Shown: one piece after another, positions 39,697 through 61,468 of the stretch
Position numbering within the stretch: position 1 is the stretch's first letter
Layout: the number at the start of each line of letters is the position of its first letter
NCBI GenBank assembly: GCA_001567365.1
Contig: JZEL01000029.1
Coordinates: forward strand, 17,525 to 81,524
Origin: Parcubacteria bacterium OLB19
Lineage (GTDB): Bacteria > Patescibacteriota > Minisyncoccia > Phycocordibacterales > UBA918
Direction of reading: 5' to 3'
DNA: 64,000 nt
Made by a program: the position numbers and the translations under genes
The notes under the pieces: model-generated
What the model was told of the DNA's origin: nothing
The model's input: only the letters and a program-made list of their open reading frames with translations
Databases searched by the model: none

Positions 39697-40981
39697 TTGT
39701 GCTACGATAGCCAAATGAAAAAATCAACACACATAATTTATGATGTGATTATTATCGGTGGTGGACCAGCTGGTATGATGTCAGCTGGTCGAGCCTCAAG
39801 TCGTGGCGCTAAAGTATTACTCTTAGAAAAGAATCCCGATGTTGGCAAAAAATTATTAATAACTGGCGGTGGACGTTGTAATGTCACAAACGCAGAAGAA
39901 AATACTCGTAAGTTTTTAGCTAATTATAAAGATAGTGATAAATTTCTCTTTTCCGCATTTTCACAATATTCCGTTAAAGACGTTTTTGAATTTTTTTCAT
40001 GAACATGGAATGGAAACTAAAGTCGAAGATAATGGTCGCGTTTTCCCAGTCACCGATTCCGCTCGTACAGTTTATGAAGTACTTAAAAATTATCTAAAAG
40101 ATAATAAGGTAGAAATAGAAAACAAGGCTGAGGTAAAAAATATAATCGCTGATAATAAAAAAATTTCCAGTGTCATTTTAGCTGATGGTAGAACCTTAAA
40201 AGCTCGCTCATTTATTTTAGCCACAGGTGTCAAATCTCGCCCCGACACAGGATCGACCGGCGATGGTTTTAAGTGGCTTAAAACACTCGGACACACCGTC
40301 ATTGAACCTGATGTTTCGTTGGTGCCAATAACTATTAAAGAAGATTGGATTAAAAATTTAGCCGGTATTACTTTACCAAAAACTAAAATTACAATCTTTC
40401 AGGATAATAAAAAACAATTCAGCCGTACTGGAAAAATACTTTTTACTCACGTTGGTTTAAGTGGTCCAACTATTTTAAATATGAGTAAAAATGTTAGAGA
40501 ATTATTAAATTATGGAAAAGTAATGATACAACTGGATTTATTTCCTGACCAAAATGAGGGTGAATTAGATAATATACTTATTAATCTTTTTCAGGAAAAT
40601 AACAAGCAGTTAAAAAATTCTCTCGCCACTCTCCTTCCCAGCGCTTTAGTTATTACATTACTAAATCAAAGTACAATTTCACCTGAAATAAAATGTCACA
40701 GTATTACTCGTGAAAACAGAAAAACCTTAGTTAAATTACTGAAGACTTTTTCTTTATCAGTCAAAGGTTTACTTGGTACCAATAAAGCTATTATAACTTC
40801 TGGTGGTGTTGCCTTAACGGAAGTAAATTTCAAAACCATGCAGTCACGACTATATGACAACTTATATATTATTGGTGATTTACTAAACATAGACCGACCG
40901 TCTGGTGGTTTTAGTTTACAGTTGTGCTGGACTACCGGCTACGTAGCAGGAAACTCCATTGAGGTGGAGAACAATAAATGA
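39697..40981 (+). CDS. HI0933/YhiN-like FAD-dependent oxidoreductase (aminoacetone-oxidase family), split by a T7 homopolymer frameshift at ~39991-39997
   Basis: N-terminal GxGxxG (IIIGGGPAGMMSAG). With T6 the junction reads …DVFEFFHEHGMETKVEDNGRVFPVTDSA…, the continuous HI0933 pattern. Confidence 0.75.
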
Positions 40982-41036: not shown

Positions 41037-41756
41037 CTAATACCCTGCAAATTCCTCAAAGCGAATATCGTCACTATCAACCCCCATCTTATCTAACATT
41101 TCTCTCATTGCCTCCACCATAGCCTGTGGTCCGACCAAATAATAAATTGGTGATGTATTTTCTGGTAGATATTTTTTAATCATATCTTCATTTATCCTCC
41201 CTCTCTCCCCTAGCCAATCTTCATTTTCATTTTCAGTATTAGTAATTGTCGCTACTAACTTAAAATTACTATTTTGTTTTTCTAAATTTTGTAATTCAGT
41301 TAAGAAAGCAGAATCCTCAGGATTGTTATTGGAATAAAATAAGATAATTTTATTTTCTAATTTTCTTTCTGTTGCATCATTAATCATAGAATAAAACGGT
41401 GTAATACCAATTCCACCCGCAATAAAAATTGCTGGTCTTTCCACTTTCTTATGTAAACCAAAAGAACCAAACGGACCCTCAAGACACAGAAATGCATCTT
41501 CATCCAAACTTCTCATTACCCGCTTAAAAGCCGAATCTCGTAAACGCATCGCTATTTTTAAAACCGGTTCATGTGGCGCGCTTACCAAAGAAAAAGTTCT
41601 TATATTTCCCTTACTGTCAGTCTCTTTCGGATCAACTAAAGTTAAGTCTATCGTTTGTCCCGATTGATACATAAAACCCTCGGGTTTTTCTAGAGTAAAT
41701 TCCATTGTCTCTCTCGCTACCTCTCTTTTTTCTATCAGTTTAATTTCGTAAATCAT
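41037..41756 (-). CDS. ferredoxin-NADP reductase-like FAD/NAD(P)-binding oxidoreductase
   Basis: RTFSLVSAP (RxYS FAD motif). GGIGITPF NAD(P)-binding motif. Confidence 0.7.
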   Translation of the reverse strand: MIYEIKLIEKREVARETMEFTLEKPEGFMYQSGQTIDLTLVDPKETDSKGNIRTFSLVSAPHEPVLKIAMRLRDSAFKRVMRSLDEDAFLCLEGPFGSFGLHKKVERPAIFIAGGIGITPFYSMINDATERKLENKIILFYSNNNPEDSAFLTELQNLEKQNSNFKLVATITNTENENEDWLGERGRINEDMIKKYLPENTSPIYYLVGPQAMVEAMREMLDKMGVDSDDIRFEEFAGY

Positions 41757-45661: not shown

Positions 45662-46326
45662 TTATGAATGTAAAAATCGAATCAAGTTGGCAAGAAGCCC
45701 TCAAAGATGAGTTTACCAAACCCTATTTCAAAAACTTAACTGAAAAAATAAAAGACGCCTATTTACAAGAAGTAATTTATCCTCATCCCAAAAATATTTT
45801 TAACGCCTTTGCCTTTTGTCCTTTTGGTCAAGTAAAAGTGGTCATATTAGGACAAGACCCTTACCATGGTACAGGTCAAGCACACGGCTTATCTTTTTCG
45901 GTACCAGACGGTATTAAAATTCCACCCTCACTACAAAATATTTATAAGGAATTAAAAAGTGATATTGGAAAAGAAATTCCTCCTTCAGGTAATTTAGAGC
46001 ATTGGGCTAAACAAGGAGTTTTGCTTTTAAATGCCACCCTTACAGTGCGAGCCGGCGTAGCCGGCTCGCATCAAGGTCTTGGCTGGGAAACCTTTACTGA
46101 CACCATCATCAAAACTATTTCTGATCAAAAAGAACATATAGTTTTTATCCTTTGGGGTAAATATGCAGAAGCTAAAACCAACCTGATAGACAAAGAAAAA
46201 CATTTAATTATCACTTCCCCACACCCTTCCCCATTTTCAGCTTACACTGGATTCTTCGGTTCCAAACCATTTAGTAAGACAAATGAATATTTAGAAAAGC
46301 ATGGATTAGAAAAAATTGAGTGGTAA
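45649..46326 (+). CDS. ung: uracil-DNA glycosylase (family 1)
   Basis: GQDPYHG water-activating motif, HPSPFS, and overall UNG pattern. Confidence 0.9.
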   Translation: MSKIIMNVKIESSWQEALKDEFTKPYFKNLTEKIKDAYLQEVIYPHPKNIFNAFAFCPFGQVKVVILGQDPYHGTGQAHGLSFSVPDGIKIPPSLQNIYKELKSDIGKEIPPSGNLEHWAKQGVLLLNATLTVRAGVAGSHQGLGWETFTDTIIKTISDQKEHIVFILWGKYAEAKTNLIDKEKHLIITSPHPSPFSAYTGFFGSKPFSKTNEYLEKHGLEKIEW

Positions 46327-46375: not shown

Positions 46376-47911
46376 CTAAACCAAACCTGGGAAGAAATCA
46401 GTAACAATCTGTTTTAGAGGTACTTTCATATCTTTGAGTAACTTTCGGTAAGATCTAACCATCATTGGCGGACCGGAAATATACCATTCCCTTTCTAAGT
46501 AATCTGGTGCGTGTTTTTTAATAATTTCTTCAGTTAAAAATCCAAATTCACAACCAACAATTTTTTCCTTAGCTAAAATATTTATCACATTGATAGGTAA
46601 TTTTTTTTCAGCATCAGCGAGAATCTCTTGGTAAGCAATTTCTGCTTCTGTGTTATTACAATTAAACAAAATAGTATCGCGCTTTTCTTTATTATGAATC
46701 ATCTCACTTATTTGACTAGCAAATGGTGTAATACCGATTCCACCTGCCACCATAGCTACTTTTTTTGTATTGTCTTTTGGTAAAGTAAAATCACCGGCTC
46801 TTTGACTAGCAATTATCTTATCGCCAACAGCTAACAAAAGTAGATTGGTTTTATAGGTACTGATTTTTTCGCCAAAACGCACTCCAATACGTAAACATTT
46901 ATCACTTGGGGCTGAAGCAATAGTAAAATATCTTCTTATACCACGATTATCTGACTGGTCATGAGGCAACATCCATTCCATGTATTGTCCAGCAACAAAT
47001 GCCATATCATGTGGTTTTGCAAAAACAAATTCAAAAGTATTTTTTGCTATTTCTCTTTTTTCTATCAGTGATAAAAATAATTTTTGACGTAAGGTAAAAG
47101 CAAAGAAAAGCAGATTGCCAATCACCAAAGCCAGCTCTGGTGTTAGTTCTAGAAATGATTCGAAGATTGTGGTTTGTGATAAAAAACCAATCAGCATTGC
47201 ATAAATGATTTGTAAATTTTTAGTCGGTGGTAAAGTAAACGGTTCCGTCAGCATGAAAAATGCCAAAAACAAGGTTGGTCCAGATAACCAAAAATTTGGT
47301 ATTTGTTCCCAAAATCCAGCACCAATACTCCAACCCTCAAATAAATAAAAAATGAAAGCGGTGAGAACGAAAACCGAAATTAATTTAAAACGCCTAAGTT
47401 TAATTACTAGCAAAGTACCAACCAGAACCAAAGGTACAAACATAGCTGGTTGCCCTATCCACCAAGCCGATTCAAAATATCCTAGATTGGGAAAAAATTG
47501 GTAAAATAATGCCACTAACACAACACCAAAAGCAGCGGGGTTTACTAAATGTTGCTTTTGTCTCACGAAAATAAATTTTGATAAAATCGCCAGAAAAGTG
47601 ACCAAAGCAATGATCCAAGATTCTGCGATATTATTCCAAAGGGCTGGCAAAACTAAAAAGAAAATGATTAAAGCGGTAATCACCGCTGATTCATTATTAA
47701 CATGGATTTGTAGTAACTTACCCAAAACAACGTTGGTTATCAAAGCTGTTGTTAGTACCACAAACAGCGAAACTAGTTGCTCTAATGCCGAATAAGGAAC
47801 AAAATTAAAAACACCTAAAACCAAAGAACATATGACCAAAAAGCTGAGAGACAAAGTCACTAGACGGTACATACCAATAGCATCTAGATGGGTGTTTATT
47901 AAGTGAAACAT
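46376..47911 (-). CDS. membrane oxidoreductase: N-terminal polytopic domain fused to C-terminal FNR-like FAD/NAD(P)-binding domain
   Basis: About 9 TM segments in the first 270 aa. Then RRYFTIASAP (RxYS) and AGGIGITPF motifs. Confidence 0.6.
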   Translation of the reverse strand: MFHLINTHLDAIGMYRLVTLSLSFLVICSLVLGVFNFVPYSALEQLVSLFVVLTTALITNVVLGKLLQIHVNNESAVITALIIFFLVLPALWNNIAESWIIALVTFLAILSKFIFVRQKQHLVNPAAFGVVLVALFYQFFPNLGYFESAWWIGQPAMFVPLVLVGTLLVIKLRRFKLISVFVLTAFIFYLFEGWSIGAGFWEQIPNFWLSGPTLFLAFFMLTEPFTLPPTKNLQIIYAMLIGFLSQTTIFESFLELTPELALVIGNLLFFAFTLRQKLFLSLIEKREIAKNTFEFVFAKPHDMAFVAGQYMEWMLPHDQSDNRGIRRYFTIASAPSDKCLRIGVRFGEKISTYKTNLLLLAVGDKIIASQRAGDFTLPKDNTKKVAMVAGGIGITPFASQISEMIHNKEKRDTILFNCNNTEAEIAYQEILADAEKKLPINVINILAKEKIVGCEFGFLTEEIIKKHAPDYLEREWYISGPPMMVRSYRKLLKDMKVPLKQIVTDFFPGLV

Positions 47912-48021
47912 TTTTGTAATTAATACGTATTTATAAGTGCGGAATCGAGAGATTCTACCACAATACGTCTATTTTATGGTATTCTTTCATCATTCTGATT
48001 ATTTCTTAATTCATTCAACCT

Positions 48022-48607
48022 ATGCCTATAGTAGCCATAATATTAAGTTTGAGTCTAATTGCTCTCGGTGTCTATTTAATAAATAATAAAAGCAATCAAG
48101 AAAATTTTGCCACTGCGAAAACTGAAGAGATACTTACAACCAAACCAGAGGAAATTGAACCTGTAAATAACGAAACAATTACTACAACACAAGAAGCAGA
48201 TTCAACTACAGAAACCAACATCACTGAAAATGAAAAGGTAGAAGAAAATCAGATCACCAATAACACTGACTCCTCAAAAAAACACTGTATATGAAATCGT
48301 ACCCGTAAGTGTAGAAAAATCCTACACTAGTGAAGCTGTATATTTTGCTTCCAACAATAAATACACTATTGATGTAACACTTGATGTGAAAGATGGAGTA
48401 GTAATCAACTCTGATGTTATGTACGGAAACAAGGAAACCGGTTACCAGCACCCACTTCAAGAACGTTTTGATGGCGCTTACAAAACTCAAGTGGTTGGCA
48501 AAAGACTAGAAGATATATCATTATCACGAGTTGGTGGTGCTTCTCTAACCTCCAAAGCCTTCAATGAAGCCATTGCTAATATTATTGATCAAACTACTCA
48601 ATCTTAA
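48022..48607 (+). CDS. secreted FMN-binding (FMN_bind) domain protein, split by an A7 homopolymer frameshift at ~48276-48282
   Basis: Signal peptide/TM, Thr/Glu-rich linker, then …NKETGYQHP…SRVGGASLTSKAFNEAI, matching the FMN_bind pattern ETPG…D.VSGAT.TS. The flavinylated position is Ser here. Confidence 0.5.
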
Positions 48608-49486
48608 ATGTCCAATCTCTTACCAGAAATCAAAGCTCTTGGCACCATTTGGTGGATTGAAATTTTCTCGGAAATATCAGATAAAGACAAGCAGGTCGTC
48701 TACGACGACCTGCTTGTCTTTATCTCTGAATTTGAAAATAAATATTCTCGTTTTCGCCAAGACTCACTTATCACCAAACTAAACGACACCAGAAAAATTG
48801 AAAACCCTGATCATATTACAATTGACTTATTACAGACCGGAATAAATTTATATAAGCAAACAGAGGGTTTGTTTAATATTTTAATTGGTGAAATCTTAGA
48901 AAACCGTGGTTATGACGCTAATTATTCATTCCTACCCAAAGAAGCAAATCTTATCATTCCTAATCCAACCGAAGAATTAAGCATATCCCAAAACCTAATT
49001 ACACTGAGTAAGGGACGAATTGATCTTGGTGGTTTTGGTAAAGGCTACTTAATAGATTTAATAGTAAAAAGATTAAAAGATAATTTTAATTTAGAATATT
49101 TTTTAATTAATGGCGGTGGTGATATTTATGCCACTAGCGACAATGGTAAACCTATAGAAATTTACCTTGAACACCCTATAGAAAAAGATACATTCATCGG
49201 CACTACCACCTTATTTAATCAAGGTTTTGCCGCCTCAAGTCCACACAAGCGCAAATGGAAAGCTGGAGACAAAATCTTTAGCCATATAGTAAACACAAAA
49301 GAAGAACCTATTTCTATAGATGGCACTTTTGTAAAAGCTGACACAGTAGCAAAAGCTGACGCTTTTGCTACTGTGTCACTAATAACCACACCAGAGAAAA
49401 TTATTAATTTTGCTAACAAATATAATTTTTCTGTGGCTTTTATAAAAAGCAATGATACGAGTTTGTTTTATAATAAAAATTGGTGA
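48608..49486 (+). CDS. apbE: FAD:protein FMN transferase ApbE
   Basis: LSKGRIDLGGFGKGYLIDLI ... FLINGGGDIYA ApbE signatures. Confidence 0.85.
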   Translation: MSNLLPEIKALGTIWWIEIFSEISDKDKQVVYDDLLVFISEFENKYSRFRQDSLITKLNDTRKIENPDHITIDLLQTGINLYKQTEGLFNILIGEILENRGYDANYSFLPKEANLIIPNPTEELSISQNLITLSKGRIDLGGFGKGYLIDLIVKRLKDNFNLEYFLINGGGDIYATSDNGKPIEIYLEHPIEKDTFIGTTTLFNQGFAASSPHKRKWKAGDKIFSHIVNTKEEPISIDGTFVKADTVAKADAFATVSLITTPEKIINFANKYNFSVAFIKSNDTSLFYNKNW

Positions 49487-49595
49487 GACTTTTACTAACT
49501 TAAGATTATTGACAGCAAATCATAATACCTGTAGTGTAAAGAGTGACAGAAGGCACTCACTGCTAAGCGGGGGGTGCCTTTGTCTTTTTTTATAG

Positions 49596-50332
49596 TTACT
49601 TTTTTCTAGGAAAAAATGTTGGTGTTTGAAACATGTATTTACCTTCTAACAAAATTGGAGAAAGATCATTACCAATCATTTTTTCTGTTTTTCCCAAATA
49701 ATGTCGTGTCAAACTCGAAAGAGCCAAATCAATCATCTGTAATCCGTTATTATTGTCACTTTTTGGCTTACAAACAAGCTTTGTTTTTCTTTTAATGTCC
49801 TCACCAGAATGAAATCTGGCACCAGTGGACTTAAGACGTTCATATTCAGCCAACAATGCATTATCTAACTCTTTACCACGACATTCTGCAACTATTTCGA
49901 CAACTGCATCCTTTGTGTGCCACAGAACTCTATTAATTAAATTTTCAAAAGAAAAATAGTAGGGATCAGCTGGCTGCGAATAATAATCAATGTGTAATTG
50001 CTTATGAATAAAGCAAGCAACAAGTGAAAATTCATGAGCCGTAATAATAGCAGTATCGATTTCCTGATAAAAATTTTTCTTTGTTCTGGATCAAGAAGAA
50101 ATATATTTCTCGGATCGCTTCGCGAATCTTTTGGACGTTTCAATTCTGATGAATGTAAAATAATAGCGGTTGAACCGTAATACTTCTCTTTTATTTTATC
50201 TACTTCATTATTTAATTTTTCATACGTCAATTCAGAAATACAGAGACCACCTAATGCAAATATGGGGTAAGTCGGATCAATTTTACTCAAATTATGATCA
50301 CCCGATTCATCAATAAACAGATAGTATTTCAT
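49596..50332 (-). CDS. DUF3800 family protein, interrupted by a 1-nt indel in an A5T5 run (~50065-50075)
   Basis: N-terminal MKYYLFIDESGDH…YPIFALGG (DUF3800 hallmark). The alternative frame continues …NFYQEIDTAIITAHEFSLVACFIHKQLHIDYY… into the 49596..49856 ORF. Confidence 0.6.
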
Positions 50333-50399
50333 CGGTATTATGATAACACAGTAGAAGCAGGCTTATATAAATCATAATTCTGTATTATAAAAAACATCA

Positions 50400-52780: not shown

Positions 52781-52824
52781 ATTTTTATTCGTATAATTAG
52801 GATTATATTAGCATAAAAGTGGTA

Positions 52825-52881: not shown

Positions 52882-53508
52882 CTACCCCTCCTTCGCGACA
52901 ATCATCGCCTTTACTCTCATAGTAGATACCACCGCATCACGAGCTCGTTCATCGAGTTGCATGGCGATAAATTTAATAGTTTCCTCTAAATTTGGAATCA
53001 TCACATTCTCAAGAGCCGATACTCGACGACGAGTTTTTTCAATTTCTTCAGCTAGGTTTTCAGCACTTTTCTCCAATCCTGCCAAACGCATAATATCAAC
53101 AAAAACCTCGTCGAATTTTACAATCGCATTATCCAAATCTCCAGAAGTATCTAAGGAACCATAAGCAAAAGCCGAACCTTCCTTAGATACCTTAAACTCA
53201 GGGATCTTAACAGACATTACAGTCTTCACAGCTACTTCGAGATTAATTTCCGCATTAGGCACCAACAAAGCCACCTCCTGAGCTAAACGTGAAGTAGTTG
53301 CACTTGAGCGCTGATAAGAATCAAAAGCCATACCCAATCGCTCTTCAACTGACTTTCGTAAATCGCGAGTTTCAAAGATTATCGCCATAAACTTTTTGAT
53401 CAAGCCATCACGCTTGTCTTTTAGAAGTTTATGTCCCTTCTTGGCTACCTTAAGTTCTTTCTTAAGATTTAGAAGAGAAATTCGTGTTGGACTAACTTTT
53501 AATATCAT
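52882..53508 (-). CDS. atpD: A/V-type ATP synthase subunit D
   Basis: 208-aa coiled-coil protein MILKVSPTRISLLNLKKELKVAKKGHKLLKDKRD… typical of V-ATPase D. Confidence 0.85.
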   Translation of the reverse strand: MILKVSPTRISLLNLKKELKVAKKGHKLLKDKRDGLIKKFMAIIFETRDLRKSVEERLGMAFDSYQRSSATTSRLAQEVALLVPNAEINLEVAVKTVMSVKIPEFKVSKEGSAFAYGSLDTSGDLDNAIVKFDEVFVDIMRLAGLEKSAENLAEEIEKTRRRVSALENVMIPNLEETIKFIAMQLDERARDAVVSTMRVKAMIVAKEG

Positions 53509-53524
53509 GTTTTATGTAGACGAA

Positions 53525-54904
53525 TTATTCAGCCTTTGGCATGTGTTTGTCGACAAACTCAGCTTTAACACGCTTCAACGATTCACGAGGAAGCATAGCT
53601 AGAAGTTTCCAACCAATATCAAGTGATTCTTCTACCGAACGATTTTCAAATTCACCTTGCCCCACAAACTCACGTTCAAAAGCTTCCGCGAAGCGCAAAT
53701 GTGCCTTATCTGAATCATCAAGTGAAGCTTCACCCAATACTACTGCCAACTCTCGTACTTCACGACCGACTGCATAAGAAGCAAACAATTGATCTTTAAG
53801 ACCACTATGATCAGCACGAGTCTTACCTTCACCTACTCCAGCTGACCATAATCGAGACAAAGAACCTTGTACATCCACCGGTGGAAATACACCCTTACGA
53901 TATAATTCGCGGGAAATCACAAACTGCCCTTCTGTAATGTAACCAGTAAGGTCAGGTACCGGATGAGTCTTGTCATCATCAGGCATACTTAGAATTGGAA
54001 TTTGTGTAATAGTTCCCTGCTTACCTTTTACCCGTCCAGCTCTTTCATAAATAGTAGAAAGGTCAGTATACAAATACCCCGGATAACCACGTCGGCCAGG
54101 CACCTCCTTTCGTACAGAAGATACTTCACGCAAAGCTTCACAGTAGTTGGTCATGTCAGTCAAAATCACCAGTACGTGCATTCCCTTTTCAAAAGCCAAG
54201 TACTCAGCTGTAGTCAAAGCCATACGTGGTGTGGAAATACGCTCAACCACTGGGTCAGCCGCTGTATTGATGAAAAGTACACTTCTCTCAAGTGAACCAG
54301 CTTCTTGAAATTGACGCTTAAAGTATTCAGCTTCTTCAAAAGACACACCGAGAGTAGCAAATACAATCGCAAACTCTCCACCATCTTTCACTTTTGCTTG
54401 ACGAGCAATTTGCGCTGCCAAACGTGAGTGCGGTAAACCAGCTCCAGAAAAGATTGGTAGCTTTTGTCCACGCACCAAAGTATTCATCACGTCGATTGAT
54501 GAAATACCAGTTTGAATAAAGTCATTAGGGAATTCACGACTGTAAGGATTGATAGCGTTACCATTAATATCGATACGCTTTTCAGGGATAATTTCTGGAC
54601 CACCGTCATTTATTACACCAGCACCCGTAAAGACCCGACCGAGCATGTCTTCACTTACACCAAGCTTCAATGTATCACCTGTAAAACGTACACGAGTATC
54701 TTCAGCTTGTACTCCAGCCGTTGGATCAAACATCTGTACCACGGCTTTATCTTCTGACACATCAAGCACCTTACCCAAACGGGTCTGATTTTCGCCCGGA
54801 ACATTTACTTCCACCAACTCTTCGTACTTTACTCCACTAACTCCCTCAACCACCAAAAGTGGTCCAGTAATAGCAGAAACGGTTTTGTATTCTTTTTGAC
54901 TCAT
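53525..54904 (-). CDS. atpB: A/V-type ATP synthase subunit B
   Basis: 459 aa. Non-catalytic B subunit pattern, with a degenerate P-loop region and SGAGLPH…. Confidence 0.9.
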
Positions 54905-54908
54905 ATTA

Positions 54909-56702
54909 TTAAGCGTTAGTTTGGGTTAGAGCTTTGATTTCCTCTTTGACTCTACTAATAAAATTCTCATAATCTGATACTTCACGTTTCTCCTTTAGAC
55001 GACCAATTTCTTTATAAGTAGACATTTGCTTGAAACGAGAAAACTCAAATTCATCAGTAGTCACAACCGGTAAACCTTCATTGTAGAAAGTAACAATTGA
55101 TTTAAGAAGATTGTACTGAATCTTGATCGGCATATATGCATCACTAGGGTCAAAAGCGTTTTGCATTAGGAAATCTTCACGAATCATACGTGCCACTTCC
55201 AAAGTAAGTTTGTCACTGTTTGATAATGACTCCATACCCACAAGACGAACAATCTCAAGCAATTTTGATTCCTTTTCCAAGAGCTCCATTGCTTGTTTTC
55301 GAATATTAGCAAAATCAGGGGCTACATTTTCACGCCAGAAATCTAATAAGTTATCAACGTAAAGTGAATATGAACCAAGCCAGTTGATAGATGGGAAATG
55401 TTTTTTGTAGGCCAATCCAGCATCAAGTGACCAGAAAGTTTTGGTCACACGTAGAGTTGATTGTGACACTGGTTCAGACAAGTCTCCACCAGGAGGAGAA
55501 ACCGCACCAATTACTGTGAGTGACCCTTGTCTCCCTTCAGAACCAAGAGTTTCTACTACACCAGCTCTTTCATAAAATTGTGCTGTGCGAGAAGAAAGAT
55601 AAGCTGGATAACCTTCCTCTCCCGGCATTTCTTCCAAACGTCCTGAAATTTCACGCATCGCCTCTGCCCAACGTGAAGTAGAGTCAGCCATTAAAGCTAC
55701 GTTATAACCCATATCACGATAGTACTCAGCAATAGTAATACCGGTATAAACTGAAGCTTCACGTGCCGCTACTGGCATATTAGAAGTGTTAGCAATGAGG
55801 ATAGTTCGCTTCATCAAAGGCTCACCTGAGTTTGGATCAATCAAGTGTGGAAACTCAGAAAGCACTTCTGTCATTTCATTTCCTCGTTCACCACAACCAA
55901 TATATACAATCACTTCAGCATTACAGTATTTAGAAATAGATTGTTGAGTCACAGTCTTACCAGCACCAAACGGCCCAGGAATACACCCAGCTCCACCTTT
56001 AGCTATTGGGAACAAAGTATCAATCGAACGACCACCAGTTAAAAGCGGTTCCGATGGGAAAATCTTTTTATTCTTTGGTCTTGGCTCACGAATTGGCCAA
56101 TATTGAAGCATAGCTACCACTTCAATTTCACCAGACTCAGTTTTAATCTCTGCAATTGTTTCTGTGATATTAAAATTACCTGATTTGATATTAGTAATTA
56201 CACCAGAAACATGAGGTGGTACCATTACCTTATGTACAATTAACTTAGTTTCAGCAACCGTACCCAAAATATCACCGCCAGTTACTTTGTCGCCTACTTT
56301 GGCTACAGCTTTAAAATCCCATTTTTTATTCTTATCCAAAGCCTCAGCATCAATACCTCTTTTAATATATACAGAACCGGAAGCCTCCTCGATAGCCTTT
56401 AGAGGTCGTTGCACGCCATCATAGATAGACTCCAAAAGACCAGGGGCTAGTGCCACTGACATAGTTTTACCGGTACGAAAAACCGGATCACCGGGCCCAA
56501 CACCAGTTGTATCTTCATACACCTGAATTGAGGCAATATCACCATTCAACTCAATTATTTCTCCAAGAAGTTTTTCTGAAGACACTTTAACCAACTCATA
56601 AAGTTTGGCAGAAGACATGCCGTTGGCACGCACCAATGGACCCGTCACTCTCACGATTTCTCCTGCCTTTGTTGCTTCTTGTGTATTAATTGTATTTGTC
56701 AT
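54909..56702 (-). CDS. atpA: A/V-type ATP synthase catalytic subunit A
   Basis: 597 aa. Walker A GPFGAGKT with flanking V-ATPase A non-homologous insert. Confidence 0.9.
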
Positions 56703-56728
56703 GGTAATAAATTTATAAATTGTTTCTG

Positions 56729-57118
56729 TTAAATAATGGCTGCTCCGATGGCTTTTTCTGCTAATTTCCGTAATCTTGCTTCTGCCAATCCTTGACTACC
56801 CTTAGCGCTTGGCAACAAGACCACAGCCGGTAATGGTCCACTGACCACTTTGGCATATTCTTTTTCGTCCATGCCTACCATTAAATCCTCAATTACACAG
56901 ACCACAGCGTATGGTGTTGGATTATTTTCGGAATTATTAATCTGTTTAATTTTACGCAATTGTCCCAAAACTTCGTCAGAAGTTTTCGCATCAAAAGCCT
57001 CTACTCCTAAAGCTTTAAAGCCCGATACGACATCACCCGGACCAACGATAGCAATTTTATACTGATTGATGTTTTTAGACATAAATTGCGCGTAATTGTT
57101 TTCGAATAACCTCTCCAC
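56729..57118 (-). CDS. atpF: A/V-type ATP synthase subunit F
   Basis: 129 aa. KIAIVGPGDVVSGFKALGVEAF pattern of V-ATPase F. Confidence 0.6.
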   Translation of the reverse strand: MERLFENNYAQFMSKNINQYKIAIVGPGDVVSGFKALGVEAFDAKTSDEVLGQLRKIKQINNSENNPTPYAVVCVIEDLMVGMDEKEYAKVVSGPLPAVVLLPSAKGSQGLAEARLRKLAEKAIGAAII

Positions 57119-58049
57119 TTTGTTTATTCTCTTTCCCTATTACAATGGCTTGTATGTTCAAAGAGACGTTTTGTTGTTTTAACAAATAAGAAACTAGGGT
57201 CGCAACTGAAAAAACATCATTACCCATCCCTTTAATTGCCACCAGAAGGTATTCATCTAGTTTGACATTGAAAGTAGTAAAATGTCCGTTCTCTAAATAT
57301 TCGCTAACAGCCTCCTTCCAAAAACGTTCACCACCAAAAGTATTCAATCTAGCTAGGAGTTTTTCCTGGGTATCAATACTGGTAAAAGCAAAACTGCCAC
57401 CATTAACAAACCAAGAAGAATCAATATCGCCTAAAGCAAATGAACGAAGACCGGTTTTTAAGTTGTACAAATCAATTTGTAATTTTAACAATTCAGCCAA
57501 AACACGATTGTCGGTTTTGTTGACCAAACTTTCTGCTAGCAAGAAATAGCCTTTATCAAATTCTTGATCCGCATTAGCTAATCCACTACCTATAACCTTT
57601 ATCGCTCGGTCATAAATGTTTTTTAAATCACTATTTATTTGTTCTAGAGTGCCAGTTTTGGCTCGTTCAAATAAAACCACAGGATCATATTTTCCCAGTT
57701 TTGACATATATGGCAAAACCTCATCTAGACCCTTACCCACCTTCAGAGCTCGCAGGATAACTCTTAAATTATGGATATCGAATCTAAACCAAAAATAAGA
57801 AAACAATTCAGGTTCCGGAGAAATTTTCTCCAAAAGGTTTTTGGTCTCAAGATTAGTTTTTTCTAGCACTGAAAATATATTGTCAATTTTATCTTCTCCA
57901 GTTAAAGAATTAAGATGAGTGTCTTTCAAAGTTTTTAACAACTCATCTGTATCTGTTACCGACAAAAGACGCTCTATATCAGCTTCACTAAGTAAACTCT
58001 TTTCTAGAGTTTTAACACGACTGGAACTGTAGATATAGGATGTCGACAT
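57075..58049 (-). CDS. atpC: A/V-type ATP synthase subunit C (V0 d-like)
   Basis: 324-aa all-helical protein in the conserved position between E and F. Confidence 0.65.
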   Translation of the reverse strand: MSTSYIYSSSRVKTLEKSLLSEADIERLLSVTDTDELLKTLKDTHLNSLTGEDKIDNIFSVLEKTNLETKNLLEKISPEPELFSYFWFRFDIHNLRVILRALKVGKGLDEVLPYMSKLGKYDPVVLFERAKTGTLEQINSDLKNIYDRAIKVIGSGLANADQEFDKGYFLLAESLVNKTDNRVLAELLKLQIDLYNLKTGLRSFALGDIDSSWFVNGGSFAFTSIDTQEKLLARLNTFGGERFWKEAVSEYLENGHFTTFNVKLDEYLLVAIKGMGNDVFSVATLVSYLLKQQNVSLNIQAIVIGKENKQSGEVIRKQLRAIYV

Positions 58050-58058
58050 AGGTTTTAA

Positions 58059-58631
58059 TTATTTCTGAAATAGATTTTTAGCTATCTCAATCTCTGAACT
58101 TGAACGAATTTCTGAAAAGAGTTTTTCTATTGATAGATCAAACTCAAAATCAGAACCAACAAAAACCAAACCACCCTTCAGTCTTGCACTTACCACCAAA
58201 GGCGCCGACACACCTAGGGCTTTAAGAATTTCTGAACTTTCTGACTGACGATGGTCTGGTGACAAAACCGACACCACCTCAATATTCTTCGGTAGAATAT
58301 TTTTATAACGTTCAGTCAAAATCGAAACATAATCTGAAGAAGACAAAGCTAATACTGATGACAAAGCTTCAGAAAACACTTCATCCAAAACTCGACGTTT
58401 TTCAGTTTGTACAGCTAAGTTGGCTTTTTGTTTTTCAAGTGACAAAGTAACGTTCTCGTAGTGTTCACTTTTCTTCTTGAACTCAGTTTGAAAACCAGCT
58501 TTAATATCGCCAATCTTTCGATCAGTTTCCTGTCTGATTTCAGAAACACGCTTCTCTGCCTCTGCCAAAATCTCATTGGCTTCGGCTTCAGAATCGGACT
58601 TTATTTTTTCAATTATTGCTTGTAATGACAT
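58059..58631 (-). CDS. atpE: A/V-type ATP synthase subunit E
   Basis: 190 aa. Long N-terminal helix (AEANEILAEAEKRVSEIRQE…) plus C-terminal globular domain. Confidence 0.7.
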   Translation of the reverse strand: MSLQAIIEKIKSDSEAEANEILAEAEKRVSEIRQETDRKIGDIKAGFQTEFKKKSEHYENVTLSLEKQKANLAVQTEKRRVLDEVFSEALSSVLALSSSDYVSILTERYKNILPKNIEVVSVLSPDHRQSESSEILKALGVSAPLVVSARLKGGLVFVGSDFEFDLSIEKLFSEIRSSSEIEIAKNLFQK

Positions 58632-58640
58632 GCAAAGATG

Positions 58641-59123
58641 TTATGCGCCAATAGAAATCAACAAAATGAAGCTGATGAGAACACCGAAAATCGCCCAAGT
58701 TTCTACCATCGCTGATATAACGATTGCCTTACCCATATTCGCTTCATCCTTAGCTATCATCAATGCTCCAGCTGCTGCTACAGAACCTTGATAAATACCA
58801 GACAATAAACCAGCAATACCAATAGGAATTCCAGCTATTAAATATTGAAGCCCAGTCACCATATCAATATCTGGCGTACCTGAACCACCAAGAATACCTG
58901 AGAAATTCAAAATTAAGAAAGCACCTACTAGACCATAAATACCTTGTGATCCTGGCAAAGCTTGCATCAAAAGCATCTTACTAAATAATTCTGGCTTCTC
59001 ACTAAGTACACCGGCAACTGCCTTACCAGCATTACCCATACCGATTGCTGAACCACAAAAACCAAACACAGCTGCAATAGCAGCACCTGCAAATACTAAC
59101 GCTACTCCGATTGATAATTCCAT
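58641..59123 (-). CDS. atpK: A/V-type ATP synthase proteolipid subunit K (duplicated c, 4 TM)
   Basis: 160 aa, Gly/Ala-rich TM hairpins. Conserved carboxylate context in the second hairpin. Confidence 0.85.
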   Translation of the reverse strand: MELSIGVALVFAGAAIAAVFGFCGSAIGMGNAGKAVAGVLSEKPELFSKMLLMQALPGSQGIYGLVGAFLILNFSGILGGSGTPDIDMVTGLQYLIAGIPIGIAGLLSGIYQGSVAAAGALMIAKDEANMGKAIVISAMVETWAIFGVLISFILLISIGA

Positions 59124-59174
59124 AAAATTTAAATGAATTTAACTTAATAAATAAAGGTAGTTTTAGGTATCAAA

Positions 59175-61165
59175 TTAACCACTATCCTCCTTTAACAAAC
59201 ATGTATAAGACTCTCTTTTAGTTAGTGGTTTAAATTCTCTCCCCGTGCCGGTGATAAACTTACCAAAGAACTCTACAAACTGCAAACGAGCACTATGAAT
59301 GAAAGAACCTAATGTATTAATCACTAGAGTAAACACATGTCCAACAATTAATACGAAAACTGCCAACACTGCACCGATATAAGGAATCATTTCATAAACA
59401 ATTCCCGCAATCAAATTAACGGCAAAAGCTAGAGCGCTTGTGGCTAGACCCAAAGCCAAAAGTCGAGAATAAGATAAGATATCAGATAGATAATTAATAC
59501 TATTGTACACACTAAGTAGACTCATCTGCACTTTACCCAAGATAGTTTTACCTGTACGACCACTAGCCAAAATTACAAAAGCTATCGCAAGATAAATCAG
59601 TGTCACTATTCGTTCTTCGTTAAATGGTAGAAATCCGAAAGTAGTAGCACCATAAACTATAAGTAAAGTAAATAATAGAAGCCAAGGACCTTGATCCAAA
59701 AGACCATTTACTAATTGTCCATTTTTAGACTCACTTACAATCTTTAAAATCATACCTACCATTACCTGTAACACACCTAGAGACAGAGCTAGATAGAAAA
59801 CCGGTAGAGGATTTCCAATTGGATCAAAAGCTTGAAGGTCTTGCAAAAACTTTGGCATCTCACTCATATTTACACCAAAGTATCCACCAAAAAACATACC
59901 GATAACAACCGTTGAAAGACCCAATAGGAAAATCAACTGGCTAAACTGTTTCGCTATTTTTGAAACCTTAAAATAAAACAAGAAAGGTAAAGCCATCAAC
60001 ATCAACAAAGCGCCGTACCCTACATCTGTTAAACAAAGACCAAAGAAGACAAAGAAGAAGACTGCCATAAACGGAGTAGGATCAATATCCTTATGTCCCG
60101 GTAAACCATTCAAACGAGTAATAATTTCGAATGGTTGAATGAGTTTATGATTTCTTATTTCAACTGGTGGAATTTCATTTTCAGCTAAGGATATTTCTGC
60201 CAAGTCATACAACACACCTTCCTCAGTAATTTTCTTTTCGAAAAGTGGTAAATTACTTTTATCAGCCCAGCCCTCAAAAACAGTTATATGTTTTGTATTT
60301 TTTACCAAACCACCAACCAGCTCACGATCACAATCCCAAACTAAGGCATCATGCGCGATTTTAATTTTTTCTAAATAATTTGTCGCAAACAAAATCAATT
60401 TACTTTTAGTTTCTGCAAGAGCACTTTCTACTTCTGCTATTCTCTTATTTAGATACTCGATTTCATCTACCGTTCTTTTTGTATAACCAACCAAATTAAT
60501 AACTTCACCTCCTAATGATTTTATGATTTGCAAAACAAGATTGTTGTCAGTACCTACTGGAACGGTTACACTAAAATACTGATTACCAACATCCTCAACA
60601 TAAGATTCGATAGCTTCCTTACCAAAAGATGCATTTATTTGCTCTGACAGGGTTAGATTCTGATTTTCTATTTTTTTTGACATTTTTGATTCTAAATAGA
60701 AAAGTCGAAGTGTAGTTCGTCTTCAGCAATCCCAAAGACACGCTCAGATCTTTCCATGGAAGCAACGTTGCTTTTTTTTTCATTTAAAGCAGATAGTTCC
60801 GCTATAGTGTTATTAAATCCGATTTCCAAAACACTCAAATCTTGTAAGACAGTCTCAAGATCGGATTTATTCAAAATTTTTTCACCAAGATTACCTTCAG
60901 AAACACTAATTAATGACCCTTTCTTTAACTTAGCAAAAGTACCTAACTTTTCTTCATAATTACTGAGAAAAGTAATTGCCTGCTTTACTTTTATTAACTT
61001 ATCAGTATTTTCACTCGAAGATATATTTGATTCAGTTAAAAATCCATCAACCTCATCGATTTTCTTAAACTCAATAGCGCCAATTTTTTGCGCTGTTTCC
61101 AGCATTTTCGCCACATCTTGACGATAAACAAAAAGACGAACTTTGGTAATAGGTACTATGGCCAT
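59175..61165 (-). CDS. atpI: A/V-type ATP synthase subunit I (a subunit), split into two ORFs at a T8/A8 homopolymer (~60671-60680)
   Basis: 60692..61165 encodes the N-terminal cytoplasmic part (MAIVPITKVRLFV…). 59175..60683 encodes the rest, including the membrane domain with the RLLALGLATS region. 157 + 502 aa gives a canonical ~660-aa subunit I. Confidence 0.75.
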
Positions 61166-61168
61166 AAA

Positions 61169-61468
61169 TTATTTAAAACTGGAGACAATTTGCTTAACCA
61201 AAGACTCTTTGCGCTTCTTGGCTTCCTGAACAAAGGTGCTTAGCTGTTCGGTTCTTTTTTTATTTTCAGTTTCGATATTTGATTTAAGTTTATTTTCAAA
61301 ATCCACTAAATCTGCCTTTAGTTTAGTTTCACCATCGCTTTTGGTATCTTTAATATTATTATCTTGCTTTACCAAAGCATCAGCTATCATTTGCTTAGCT
61401 TTTTCCTTAGCTGTAGTTATTCTTAAATCAGCCTCTTTCTCCGCTTCCAAAATCGTATTAAATGACAT
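61169..61468 (-). CDS. atpH: A/V-type ATP synthase subunit H/G-like (small coiled-coil stalk subunit)
   Basis: 99-aa charged helical protein at the 5' end of the operon. Confidence 0.5.
   Translation of the reverse strand: MSFNTILEAEKEADLRITTAKEKAKQMIADALVKQDNNIKDTKSDGETKLKADLVDFENKLKSNIETENKKRTEQLSTFVQEAKKRKESLVKQIVSSFK

What the first reader, a model, noticed from the sequence alone, without database searches (positions are those of the whole stretch)
46376..49486. Extracytoplasmic flavinylation cassette: membrane FNR-fusion oxidoreductase, secreted FMN-binding protein (Ser in place of the flavinylated Thr) and ApbE
48022..48607 encodes a signal-anchored protein whose C-terminal region matches the FMN_bind domain (…NKETGYQHP…SRVGGASLTS…). 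It is directly followed by ApbE, the flavin transferase that modifies such domains. 46376..47911 immediately upstream is a ~9-TM protein fused to a ferredoxin-NADP-reductase-like domain, and a second FNR-like protein lies at 41037..41756. Together these look like an ApbE-dependent extracellular electron-transfer/redox module (analogous to PplA/FmnB systems) in a fermentative small-genome organism. The flavin acceptor motif reads GGAS rather than SGAT.
Basis: partly seen in the sequence, partly recalled or inferred. Interest (0 to 1): 0.5.

Follow-up and report, generated by a model that had tools for sequence, protein, structure and literature searches.

The report
NQR/RNF-like flavin electron-transfer cassette
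This is a three-gene module of a kind already described in tiny-genome bacteria that probably passes electrons from NAD(P)H across the membrane through flavins. It has three features not noted in the papers read here: an altered flavin-attachment motif, a flavin transferase with no export signal, and a conserved RNA hairpin inside the transferase gene.

Summary
The genes are there as described. 46376..47911(-) is an RnfD/NqrB-like membrane domain fused to an NqrF/FNR-like NAD(P)H/FAD domain. 48022..48607(+) is a membrane-anchored NqrC/RnfG-like FMN-binding protein. 48608..49486(+) is ApbE. This meets the published definition of the "NQR/RNF-like" flavinylation system (Méheust 2021; Huang 2024), which is known from candidate phyla radiation bacteria. 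It is not a PplA/FmnB-type system. The window matches Parcubacteria bacterium OLB19.

The FMN-binding gene is broken by an A7 run at 48276..48282. Five independent assemblies of 98-99% identical strains have A6 and an intact 194-aa protein. Several other homopolymer frameshifts occur in the window, so this is probably an assembly error.

- The acceptor motif (L)SRVGGAS(L)T is near-invariant in a clade of about 3,000 cluster representatives. A Ser acceptor is already allowed; the real deviations are the missing Asp and Gly at -3.
- The cognate ApbE has no signal peptide in all 120 closest homologs, and none in other NQR/RNF-like clusters, so where flavinylation happens is unresolved.
- A 13-22 bp hairpin sits at codons 25-39 of apbE in 55 of 72 diverged genes, with strong covariation. 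It is probably a terminator or 3' protective structure that lowers ApbE relative to its substrate.

The parts
46376..47911 (-). Gene for the 511-aa fusion protein, identical to KXJ97862.1 (annotated 'Flavohemoprotein') of Parcubacteria bacterium OLB19: an RnfD/NqrB-like membrane domain joined to an NqrF/FNR-like FAD/NAD(P)H domain.
47087..47911 (-). Residues 1-275: RnfD/NqrB-like domain with about 10 TM helices and both N- and C-termini inside. It lacks the NqrB/RnfD flavinylation loop. The invariant Glu223 in FFMLTEP aligns with NqrB Asp346 in FFMATDP.
46379..47083 (-). Residues 277-511: cytoplasmic FNR-family FAD/NAD(P)H-binding domain, with invariant RRYFT and GGIGITP motifs.
47912..48021 (.). 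110-bp divergent intergenic region between the fusion gene and the FMN_bind-apbE pair. It presumably holds the divergent promoters, but this is inferred only.
   Evidence: Gene layout. The same divergent layout occurs in L003, L006, L007, L008 and in 40 metagenome loci. The sigma-70 consensus scan found no site here and fewer sites in the region than in shuffles.
48022..48607 (+). Gene for the NqrC/RnfG-like FMN-binding protein: an N-terminal TM anchor (residues 2-21), an acidic Thr/Pro/Ser-rich linker of about 75 aa, and a C-terminal FMN_bind-fold domain. The gene is split by a +1 frameshift in this assembly.
48276..48282 (+). A7 homopolymer that breaks the reading frame. Relatives have A6.
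   Evidence: Alignment with L001 and L002. This is the only gap in 3.9 kb. The same A6 is seen in L089-L091. Homopolymer test.
48524..48544 (+). Predicted flavinylation motif S-R-V-G-G-A-S. The acceptor Ser (Ser174 of the intact 194-aa protein) is encoded at 48542..48544.
   Evidence: Translation. R, V, G, A, S and T are invariant in 59-60 homologs. Motif census. The motif lies at the N-terminus of the last helix of the AF2 model.
48608..49486 (+). apbE (FAD:protein FMN transferase), 292 aa, with no signal peptide or lipobox. Identical to KXJ97865.1 of Parcubacteria bacterium OLB19. Its ATG directly follows the TAA stop of the FMN_bind gene.
   Evidence: Pfam 114 bits, with profile position 2 at residue 12. 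NCBIfam profile position 38 at residue 7. N-termini of 120 homologs. Alignment to solved ApbEs, with the SH(I/V) His and the ADAxxT motif conserved. Exact-sequence look-up.
48679..48725 (+). Perfect hairpin inside apbE (22-nt arms, 3-nt loop, codons 25-39, DKDKQVVYDDLLVFI). It is conserved in position but variable in sequence across the clade. It is a candidate intragenic terminator or 3' protective structure for the FMN_bind message.
   Evidence: MFE -39.2 kcal/mol, z -9.75. 72-gene MFE profile. Stem statistics. Covariation. Synonymous recoding. Negative control clade.
49339..49378 (+). Second perfect hairpin inside apbE (18-nt arms, 4-nt loop), over the codons for ADTVAKADAFATVS. It is present in near-identical strains but is not general in the clade.
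   Evidence: The 72-gene profile shows only a shallow dip near +690.
41037..41756 (-). Stand-alone FNR-family flavin reductase paralog (239 aa). It sits in the same position in relative L003. Whether it belongs to the module is not shown.

Best explanation
The cassette is a two-subunit 'NQR/RNF-like' flavin-based transmembrane electron-transfer module together with its maturation enzyme.

Proposed mechanism:
1. NAD(P)H reduces FAD in the cytoplasmic FNR/NqrF-like domain of the 511-aa protein. This is inferred from homology.
2. Electrons cross the membrane through the RnfD/NqrB-like domain. That domain has lost its own covalent-FMN loop and presumably holds a non-covalent flavin. This too is inferred from homology, and from the AlphaFold-multimer model published for a Ktedonobacter homolog.
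3. Electrons reach an FMN that ApbE has attached by a phosphoester bond to Ser174 of the membrane-anchored NqrC/RnfG-like protein (motif SRVGGAS). That protein sits on a flexible acidic linker of about 75 residues.
4. The FMN passes the electrons to an unidentified acceptor outside the cell. In a fermentative Parcubacterium this would regenerate NAD(P)+.

Shown here: the domain identities, the folds, the conserved three-gene linkage, the loss of the NqrB flavinylation site, the near-invariance of the acceptor motif, and the intact gene in sister strains.

Not shown: flavinylation itself, the direction of electron flow, the acceptor, and the side of the membrane on which ApbE acts.

Within apbE, a conserved stable hairpin about 70-117 nt into the gene most likely forms the 3' end of the FMN_bind message, either by intrinsic termination or by blocking exonucleases. 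The stoichiometric substrate would then be made in excess over its catalytic transferase.
For: Domain and fold identities.

The published definition is met: PMC8238504 sections 13 and 23 and PMC10979944 section 8.

The three-gene cassette is conserved in divergent Patescibacteria loci.

There is no [STG]GA[ST] motif in the membrane domain, and NqrB residues 217-273 are reduced to about 16 residues.

The acceptor motif is invariant or near-invariant in 59 close homologs and in most of the 132 further representatives examined. The family has 3,035 representatives at E<=0.001.

The ApbE catalytic His and the ADAxxT motif are conserved.

The gene is intact in five independent assemblies.

Hairpin evidence:
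- Mean MFE of 51-nt windows is -24.4 kcal/mol at one site, against roughly -5 to -11 elsewhere, in 72 genes.
- 55 of 72 genes have at least 11 Watson-Crick pairs, and 36 stems are perfect.
- All 20 pairs covary. 87.6% of cells are paired against 36-43% when the partner is slid. The covariation score is 0.864 against 0.232 in shuffles, with 0 of 500 shuffles as high.
- The real sequence is 4.4 SD more stable than synonymous recodings.
- The outer stem is an A-tract paired with a T-tract, like the window's intergenic terminators.
- The hairpin is absent where apbE is followed by the fusion gene on the same strand.
- 3' protective structures embedded on average 107 +/- 56 nt into the downstream gene are documented in E. 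coli operons (PMC5927463).
Against: The FMN_bind match of this protein is below Pfam's cut-off (18 against 22 bits). A profile of the family finds no NqrC or RnfG by sequence in the PDB. Foldseek gave no significant hit.

The motif lacks the Asp at -6 that the ApbE review describes as strictly conserved, and lacks Ser/Thr at -3 (PMC12052999). No member of this clade has been shown to be flavinylated.

ApbE has no export signal. This conflicts with an extracytoplasmic acceptor domain unless flavinylation precedes export.

The N-terminal anchor has no positive charge ahead of the TM helix, so its orientation is not secure.

No acceptor or partner gene is conserved next to the cassette.

As it stands in this assembly, the acceptor gene is frameshifted.

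For the hairpin, the U-tract is only moderate (25 of 44 sequences have at least 5 T in 8 nt). No transcript data were available. The alignment used for covariation held only genes preselected for a stable fold at that site (56 of 72).
Confidence: 0.7

Rival explanations
1. The module is dead in this organism. The +1 frameshift is real and the FMN-binding gene is a pseudogene, leaving an orphan ApbE and an orphan fusion protein.
For: The window sequence has A7 at 48276..48282 and no single ORF spans 48022..48607.
Against: Five independent assemblies of 98-99% identical strains have A6 and an intact 194-aa protein. There are no other disabling changes. The same window has further homopolymer-length frameshift candidates in otherwise conserved genes: the HI0933-like gene at 39991, DUF3800 near 50068, and a 795-aa gene that is intact in relatives and for which the homopolymer test suggests the T6 run at 51277. 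These genes are intact in relatives. That pattern is typical of systematic homopolymer error.
Confidence: 0.08
2. The flavoprotein faces the cytoplasm. The anchor inserts N-out/C-in and the leaderless ApbE flavinylates the domain in the cytoplasm. The FMN domain then works on the inner face, for example between the FNR domain and the membrane domain, rather than as an extracellular electron outlet.
For: ApbE has no signal peptide across the clade and in other NQR/RNF-like clusters. There are no K/R residues before the TM helix, and on average one K/R just after it. Cytoplasmic ApbEs with cytoplasmic FMN_bind substrates are known, for example the Klebsiella fumarate reductase (PMC12052999).
Against: By K/R counting, the loop of the RnfD-like domain that replaces the NqrB FMN loop (residues 141-151) lies outside. 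The published multimer model of a homologous complex puts the NqrC-like subunit on the extracytosolic side, next to that site. Sister-branch FMN_bind proteins start with a classical MKK + hydrophobic N-in anchor yet also have a leaderless ApbE. The linker is strongly acidic and rich in Thr/Pro/Ser (mean 12 D/E against 3 K/R), as in exported tethers.
Confidence: 0.15
3. The module is a minimal redox-driven ion pump, or conversely is driven by an ion gradient. NqrB is the ion-conducting subunit of Na+-NQR, so NAD(P)H-to-acceptor electron flow through the NqrB-like domain might move Na+ or H+ and feed the ATPase encoded nearby.
For: The membrane domain has the RnfD/NqrB fold. The invariant Glu223 aligns with NqrB Asp346; the role of Asp346 in Na+ translocation is from my own knowledge and was not checked here. 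ATPase operons lie within a few kb in the window, L007 and L008.
Against: NqrD/E, RnfA/E and the second flavin site are absent. ATPase adjacency is seen in only 3 of 27 fusion loci, and the ATPases are of different types. In the close relative L003 the ATPase segment is absent from this site. The NqrB alignment is marginal by sequence (E 0.024).
Confidence: 0.1
4. The apbE hairpin is not an RNA 3'-end element. It could be a DNA-level palindrome (a cruciform or a target of template-switch correction), or a translational pause or RNase III site within apbE.
For: Stems are almost purely Watson-Crick (903 WC, 22 GU, 14 mismatches) and 36 of 55 are perfect. That suits a DNA palindrome or long dsRNA as well as a terminator. 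Arms reach 20-22 bp, which I recall is long enough for RNase III. The loop is exactly one codon in 45 of 55 genes.
Against: Sequence-independent conservation of a structure with A-tract/T-tract flanks matches the genome's own intergenic terminators. The hairpin occurs only where apbE is the last gene of the pair. Its position, +71 to +117 nt, falls in the range reported for 3' protective structures. An RNase III cut would in any case have the same net effect of lowering ApbE.
Confidence: 0.2

Closest known systems
NQR/RNF-like flavinylation-associated system (Méheust et al. 2021, eLife, PMC8238504; Huang et al. 2024, PMC10979944)
   Same: An NqrB/RnfD-like membrane domain (PF03116) fused to an NqrF-like NAD-binding domain (PF00175). 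It is clustered with an NqrC/RnfG-like FMN-binding protein and ApbE. The NqrB flavinylation site is lost. The system was reported mainly from Actinobacteria and the candidate phyla radiation.
   Different: In this Parcubacteria-type clade the fusion gene is divergent from an FMN_bind-apbE pair; the other branch sampled here has FMN_bind, apbE and the fusion gene on one strand. The acceptor motif is SRVGGAS rather than VDIISGAT. The FMN_bind domain falls below Pfam's cut-off. The anchor starts MP + TM with no positive charge. apbE carries the embedded hairpin. The lack of a signal peptide on the cluster's ApbE, seen here in both branches, is not discussed in the sections of those papers I read.
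Na+-NQR (NqrB/NqrC/NqrF) and Rnf (RnfD/RnfG)
   Different: Only two polypeptides are present. There are no NqrA/D/E or RnfA/B/C/E subunits, no Fe-S carriers and no covalent FMN on the B/D-like subunit. Electron flow is presumed to run one way, outward, instead of the semicircular path. Ion pumping has not been shown.
Listeria-type extracellular electron transfer (FmnB/PplA/Ndh2/EetA/EetB/DmkA)
   Same: An ApbE-family transferase and a surface-tethered FMN_bind protein are proposed to carry electrons outward from NAD(P)H.
   Different: The membrane step here is an RnfD-like/FNR fusion, not Ndh2 plus a quinone plus EetAB. The protein has one FMN_bind domain on a TM anchor rather than being a two-domain lipoprotein. 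This ApbE has no lipoprotein signal. No eet or dmk genes are in the window.
Cytoplasmic ApbE of Klebsiella pneumoniae (serves the soluble fumarate reductase; reviewed in PMC12052999)
   Same: An ApbE without a signal peptide.
   Different: Its substrate is a soluble cytoplasmic enzyme. Here the only candidate substrate in the cluster is membrane-anchored and, by homology, extracytoplasmic.
3' protective RNA structures in differentially decaying operons (Dar and Sorek 2018, PMC5927463) and operon-internal intrinsic terminators
   Same: [quoted passage not shown] The E. coli structures lie on average 107 +/- 56 nt into that gene; here the hairpin spans 71-117 nt. It follows the gene whose product is needed in larger amount.
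   Different: The stems here are unusually long and perfect. They are symmetric around a single codon and are kept by covariation, with arms that read as in-frame complementary codons in the examples inspected, across genes only 40-65% identical in protein. No transcript data exist for these organisms.

Membership tests
NQR/RNF-like system (operational definition of PMC8238504, section 23) | [quoted passage not shown] | tested here: met
NQR/RNF-like system (operational definition of PMC8238504, section 23) | [quoted passage not shown] | tested here: met
NQR/RNF-like system (operational definition of PMC8238504, section 23) | Encoded within five genes of an ApbE or FMN_bind gene | tested here: met
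   The ApbE and FMN_bind-like genes are immediately adjacent. The same linkage is seen in L003, L006-L008 and in 40 metagenome loci.
NQR/RNF-like system (operational definition of PMC8238504, section 23) | [quoted passage not shown] | tested here: inconclusive
   No SignalP was available. The FMN_bind-like protein has an N-terminal hydrophobic helix (residues 2-21) with no preceding positive charge. ApbE has none.
NQR/RNF-like system (structural description in PMC10979944) | [quoted passage not shown] | tested here: met
   There is no [STG]GA[ST] motif in residues 1-275. NqrB residues 217-273 correspond to about 16 residues here.
FMN_bind domain (PF04205; NqrC/RnfG/PplA type) | Pfam profile match above the gathering score | tested here: not met
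   18.0-18.1 bits against a cut-off of 22 for the window protein and P0001. 47 of 59 relatives match at E<=0.1, best 4e-5.
FMN_bind domain (PF04205; NqrC/RnfG/PplA type) | FMN_bind fold | tested here: met
ApbE substrate motif D-x-x-[S/T]-G-A-[S/T] (PMC12052999) | Acceptor Ser/Thr preceded by G-A | tested here: met
   G-A-S at 48536..48544. It is invariant in the clade.
ApbE substrate motif D-x-x-[S/T]-G-A-[S/T] (PMC12052999) | Asp at -6 and Ser/Thr at -3 | tested here: not met
   Position -6 is Ser (Ala in some relatives) and -3 is Gly. The review notes that D-to-A had only minor effects in one substrate.
ApbE substrate motif D-x-x-[S/T]-G-A-[S/T] (PMC12052999) | Covalent FMN actually attached | not testable with these tools
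   This needs co-expression followed by in-gel fluorescence or mass spectrometry.
ApbE (PF02424) FAD:protein FMN transferase | Profile match and conserved catalytic and Mg/FAD residues | tested here: met
   114 bits. The protein aligns to solved ApbEs with the SH(I/V) His and the ADAxxT motif kept. H226, D251 and T255 are invariant in 46 sequences.
ApbE (PF02424) FAD:protein FMN transferase | The typical N-terminal lipoprotein signal, giving a periplasmic location | tested here: not met
   The domain starts at residue 12, and E. coli-type profile position 38 falls at residue 7. 118 of 120 homologs show no hydrophobic N-terminus, and the other two are borderline and equally short.
Listeria-type EET locus | Ndh2, EetA, EetB, DmkA/B and a PplA-like lipoprotein | tested here: not met
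   None of the window ORFs scanned carries these domains. The rest of the genome could not be examined.
Intrinsic terminator / 3' protective hairpin | A stable GC-containing stem followed by a U-rich tract, with conserved position and covariation | tested here: met
   MFE -39 kcal/mol. T frequencies of 0.52-0.93 at alignment columns 51-54 and 0.77 at column 56. Covariation. The tool's terminator scan flags the site, on the minus strand because it is a palindrome.
Intrinsic terminator / 3' protective hairpin | RNA 3' ends, or a drop in coverage, at the site | not testable with these tools
   No transcriptome data were available.

The most novel reading that the evidence does not exclude
In NQR/RNF-like systems the cognate ApbE is cytoplasmic. 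FMN would then be attached to the short C-terminal motif of the anchor protein before or during its export. These small-genome bacteria could thus make an extracellular covalent flavoprotein without exporting FAD. In the Parcubacteria-type clade this would go with a re-specified recognition motif (SRVGGAS) and a hairpin inside apbE that sets the substrate-to-enzyme ratio.
Probability: 0.25. Interest if true: 0.7.

Novelty: new variant of a known kind. Interest (0 to 1): 0.45.

Why it matters
Candidate phyla radiation bacteria are thought to lack respiratory chains, and how they re-oxidise NAD(P)H is an open question. A published survey reported extracytosolic flavinylation as strikingly under-represented in this group (PMC8238504). 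That survey used Pfam matches and signal-peptide filters. In this clade the FMN_bind domain falls below Pfam's cut-off and ApbE has no signal peptide, so such a survey could undercount it.

Here the acceptor family has about 3,000 representatives at 50% identity, and the fusion protein has many Patescibacteria homologs. This two-subunit flavin wire may therefore be a common redox outlet in these organisms.

The leaderless ApbE raises a concrete, testable question about where covalent flavinylation takes place.

The apbE hairpin is an unusually clear case of a nucleic-acid structure constraining a protein sequence: 20 covarying pairs, with arms that read as complementary codons in the examples inspected. 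It gives a handle on operon stoichiometry control in uncultured bacteria.

Tried and rejected
- A sequence profile of the FMN_bind-like family against PDB sequences gave no NqrC or RnfG hit. phmmer with the membrane domain alone gave nothing.
- Stop-codon readthrough producing an FMN_bind-ApbE fusion would explain the leaderless ApbE. The two genes are in frame in the window and in L003, but not in L006, L007 or L008 (coordinates). I rejected the idea.
- A functional link to the ATPase operon was considered. Adjacency is seen in only 3 of 27 fusion loci, so I did not pursue it.
- Fused or multi-domain relatives of the acceptor protein (P0305, P0306, P0330, P0335, P0346, P0418) gave no Pfam domains that would hint at an acceptor.
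- Rfam has no family for either hairpin. The only matches are generic hairpin hits far below their gathering scores.
- A search of the Méheust supplementary files for OLB19, Paceibacteria or Patescibacteria found nothing in the text that is held. A literature search for Patescibacteria together with ApbE found no paper.
- The exact-sequence contig look-up for the OLB19 ApbE was not on record. Identity was established through the cluster look-up instead.
- A sigma-70 consensus scan gave no convincing promoter in the divergent intergenic region.


Full report
ORIGIN AND OBSERVATION

The ApbE (48608..49486) and the 511-aa protein (46376..47911, minus strand) are identical to KXJ97865.1 and KXJ97862.1 of the MAG Parcubacteria bacterium OLB19, in the Patescibacteria group.

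Pfam gives the following for the 511-aa protein: NQR2_RnfD_RnfE (44 bits, above cut-off), NAD_binding_1 (51 bits) and a weak FAD_binding_6. It gives ApbE at 114 bits for 48608..49486, and NAD_binding_1 at 81 bits for 41037..41756.

The gene at 48022..48607 is not one ORF. Frame 1 ends at 48294 and the FMN-binding part continues in frame 2. The switch is an A7 run at 48276..48282.

THE FRAMESHIFT

Two Logan contigs (L001, L002; about 99% identical) and three ENA contigs (L089-L091; about 98% identical) carry A6. They encode an intact 194-aa protein, P0001. Over 3.9 kb this is the only gap against L001.

A mechanical test finds six homopolymer runs in the window where a 1-nt change fuses two ORFs. 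These are at 17558, 20727, 35923, 39991, 48276 and 51277. Relatives have the HI0933-like gene, the DUF3800 gene and a 795-aa gene intact where the window splits them. I conclude that the break is most likely a homopolymer assembly error and not a pseudogene.

WHAT THE THREE PROTEINS ARE

Hydropathy and K/R counts give about 10 TM helices with both ends inside. The loop at residues 141-151 is outside. A profile of the membrane domain aligns to V. cholerae NqrB in two stretches that skip NqrB 217-273, and only about 16 residues stand there in this protein. By my recollection that skipped segment carries the flavinylated Thr236. The domain contains no [STG]GA[ST] motif. NqrB Asp346 (FFMATDP) aligns with the invariant Glu223 (FFMLTEP).

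(b) The 194-aa protein. It has an N-terminal helix (residues 2-21), a disordered acidic Thr/Pro/Ser-rich linker, and a confidently modelled beta-3/alpha-2 domain at residues 98-193.

(c) ApbE. It aligns to solved ApbEs with the SH(I/V) histidine and the ADAxxT motif conserved.

COMPARISON WITH WHAT IS KNOWN

Méheust et al. 2021 defined an 'NQR/RNF-like' system. It is a flavinylation-associated cluster encoding a PF03116 + PF00175 fusion. [quoted passage not shown]

Huang et al. 2024 added three points. The system has two subunits. The NqrB-like flavinylation site is lost. An AlphaFold-multimer model places the flavin of the NqrC-like subunit next to the non-covalent site of the NqrB-like subunit.

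The window cassette meets each sequence criterion, so it belongs to this kind. It is not a PplA/FmnB/Ndh2/EetAB-type system. None of those partners is among the window ORFs I scanned.

CONSERVATION AND DISTRIBUTION

The layout is fusion gene (minus strand), then FMN_bind and apbE (plus strand). It recurs in L003, L006, L007, L008 and in 40 metagenome loci.

The fusion protein has many full-length homologs named Pacebacteria, Paceibacterota or Kaiserbacteria. The genome collection also holds full-length copies in Saccharibacteria, Nomura-, Ames- and Adlerbacteria, Peribacteraceae, Ktedonospora and Actinobacteria.

In that second branch the order is FMN_bind, apbE, fusion gene, all on one strand. 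The acceptor there has a classical MKK + TM start and the canonical VD(I/M)(I/V)SGAT motif.

THE ACCEPTOR MOTIF

In the window's clade the motif (L)SRVGGAS(L)T is essentially fixed. R, V, G, A, S and T are invariant in 59-60 sequences. Among the 132 further top representatives examined, 77 read LSRVGGASLT, most of the rest are close variants, and 16 did not match the search pattern. A full HMMER pass finds 3,035 representatives at E<=0.001 and 2,417 at E<=1e-10.

A Ser acceptor lies within the published motif D-x-x-[S/T]-G-A-[S/T]. The real departures are the missing Asp at -6 and Gly at -3. No member of this clade has been tested experimentally, as far as the library shows.

THE UNRESOLVED POINT: A LEADERLESS ApbE

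The ApbE domain begins at residue 12. Position 38 of the E. coli-type profile falls at residue 7. All 120 nearest homologs are equally short and have no hydrophobic N-terminus. The cluster ApbEs of the other branch also start directly at the first strand. This includes Ktedonospora, a relative of the organism modelled by Huang et al..

Cytoplasmic ApbEs are known, but they serve soluble cytoplasmic substrates. There are three possibilities here:
- FMN is attached in the cytoplasm to the unfolded C-terminal motif before export. The review notes that a 7-residue tag suffices and works best at protein termini.
- The FMN domain is in fact cytoplasmic.
- ApbE is exported by an unknown route.

Homology, the predicted outside position of loop 141-151, and the acidic linker all favour an external domain. 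I therefore rank the first option highest, but nothing here settles the question.

I rejected a readthrough fusion of the two genes. They share a frame only in the window and in L003 (coordinates).

A CONSERVED HAIRPIN INSIDE apbE

The terminator scan and the repeat finder showed a perfect hairpin at 48679..48725, with 22-nt arms and a 3-nt loop. Its RNA MFE is -39.2 kcal/mol, z = -9.75. It covers codons 25-39, DKDKQVVYDDLLVFI. A second perfect hairpin lies at 49339..49378. Both are identical in three independent ENA contigs. All other perfect hairpins in the window that I compared with the ORF coordinates are intergenic and terminator-like.

Divergent relatives have a hairpin at the same offset but with a different sequence. 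I therefore collected 80 more loci and anchored 72 non-redundant genes on the conserved Gly of 'ALGT'. The results were:
- The mean MFE of 51-nt windows has one sharp minimum of -24.4 kcal/mol (median -26.2) at +36. Elsewhere it is roughly -5 to -11.
- 55 of 72 genes have at least 11 Watson-Crick pairs at the site. In 45 of them the loop is exactly one codon at the same position.
- Arms are 11-22 nt long and 36 stems are perfect. Totals are 903 WC pairs, 22 GU pairs and 14 mismatches.
- On an ungapped 44-sequence alignment, all 20 pairs show double-sided changes. 87.6% of cells pair, against 36-43% when the partner is slid. The covariation score is 0.864 against 0.232 in shuffles, with 0 of 500 shuffles as high. 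Caveat: only genes with a stable fold at the site went into this alignment, which was 56 of the 72.
- Real sequences are on average 4.4 SD more stable than synonymous recodings.
- The outer stem is an A-tract paired with a T-tract. T frequency is 0.52-0.93 at alignment columns 51-54 and 0.77 at column 56. This is the build of this genome's intergenic terminators.
- The hairpin is present where apbE ends the FMN_bind-apbE pair. It is absent in the 3 clade members with the fusion gene downstream, and in 10 genes of the co-directional branch.
- Rfam has no matching family.

The closest precedent is the class of 3' protective structures that sit on average 107 +/- 56 nt inside the downstream gene of differentially decaying E. 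coli operons (PMC5927463).

My reading is that the hairpin forms the 3' end of the FMN_bind message, by termination or by blocking exonucleases. Expression of the catalytic ApbE would then be lower than that of its stoichiometric substrate. An RNase III site or a DNA-level palindrome cannot be excluded.

MECHANISM, WITH SHOWN AND INFERRED STEPS

Shown:
- the domain identities and folds;
- the conserved linkage of the three genes;
- the loss of the NqrB flavinylation site;
- the conserved acceptor motif;
- the intact gene in sister strains;
- the leaderless ApbE;
- the conserved hairpin.

Inferred:
- the electron path NAD(P)H to FAD (FNR domain), to a non-covalent flavin in the RnfD-like domain, to covalent FMN on Ser174, to an external acceptor;
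- the outward orientation of the FMN domain;
- the role of the hairpin.

Unknown:
- the acceptor;
- NADH or NADPH preference;
- any ion coupling.

The second FNR-like gene (41037..41756) is a 32%-identical paralog that sits in the same position in L003. I could not link it functionally to the cassette.

VERDICT

Two corrections apply. The Ser acceptor is ordinary, and the enzyme is not predicted to be secreted.

The cassette itself is a member of a described system. The fixed variant motif, the leaderless ApbE and the apbE-internal hairpin are, as far as I could find, undescribed. They make it a variant worth a modest follow-up.

Noticed in passing
window 17558, 20727, 35923, 39991-39997, 50068 region, 51277: There are further homopolymer-linked frameshift candidates. 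They include a T7 run that splits an HI0933-like flavoprotein (39697..40002 and 39935..40981), an A5-versus-A6 difference that splits a DUF3800 gene, and a 528 + 275 aa split of a gene that is 795 aa in relatives. The pattern points to systematic homopolymer errors in this assembly.
   Followed up: partly
window 49245-61951: A segment of about 12.7 kb lies between apbE and the DEAD-box helicase gene. It holds DUF3800, a 795-aa gene with no Pfam match, and a V/A-type ATPase operon (subunits D, B, A, C, E, I at 52882..61468, minus strand). The segment is absent from the same site in the 80%-identical relative L003. Other relatives (L008, L089) do have a V-type ATPase next to apbE.
   Followed up: partly
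window 49339-49378: A second perfect 18-bp hairpin lies inside apbE, over the codons of the catalytic-region motif ADTVAKADAFATVS. It is identical in three independent assemblies of near-identical strains but is not a general feature of the clade. Its function is unknown.
   Followed up: partly
window 11217-11279, 29050-29094, 9253-9295, 3370-3410, 40981-41017, 52825-52859, 2503-2534: The intergenic terminator-like hairpins of this genome are unusually long and perfect (15-30 nt arms). Nearly all have a 3-nt loop (one has 2 nt) and A/T-tract flanks, which suggests bidirectional terminators.
   Followed up: no
P0305 (440 aa) and P0306 (1005 aa): These relatives of the acceptor protein carry 4 and 7 matched stretches. 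Two and one copies of the (L)[SA]R.GGASLT motif were found in them. They are possible multi-flavinylated proteins in the same clade, and they have no Pfam matches.
   Followed up: partly
window 44798-46326; L001, L003, L006: Fpg (8-oxoguanine glycosylase family) and uracil-DNA glycosylase genes sit immediately next to the fusion gene in the window and in several relatives, including the distant L006. This may be simple synteny or a link to oxidative stress.
   Followed up: no
window 27545-29044: This ORF combines an N-terminal HTH_3 (XRE-type) domain with a full EPSP_synthase/MurA-family domain. That is an unusual fusion.
   Followed up: no
window 9398-11197: A class II (Asp/Lys/Asn-type) tRNA synthetase carries a C-terminal DUF2000 domain.
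   Followed up: no
L001 and L002 ends (window 48670 and 48646): Both short-read Logan contigs of sister strains stop within about 35 nt upstream of the apbE palindrome. A plausible reason is that the perfect inverted repeat breaks the assembly graph.
   Followed up: no
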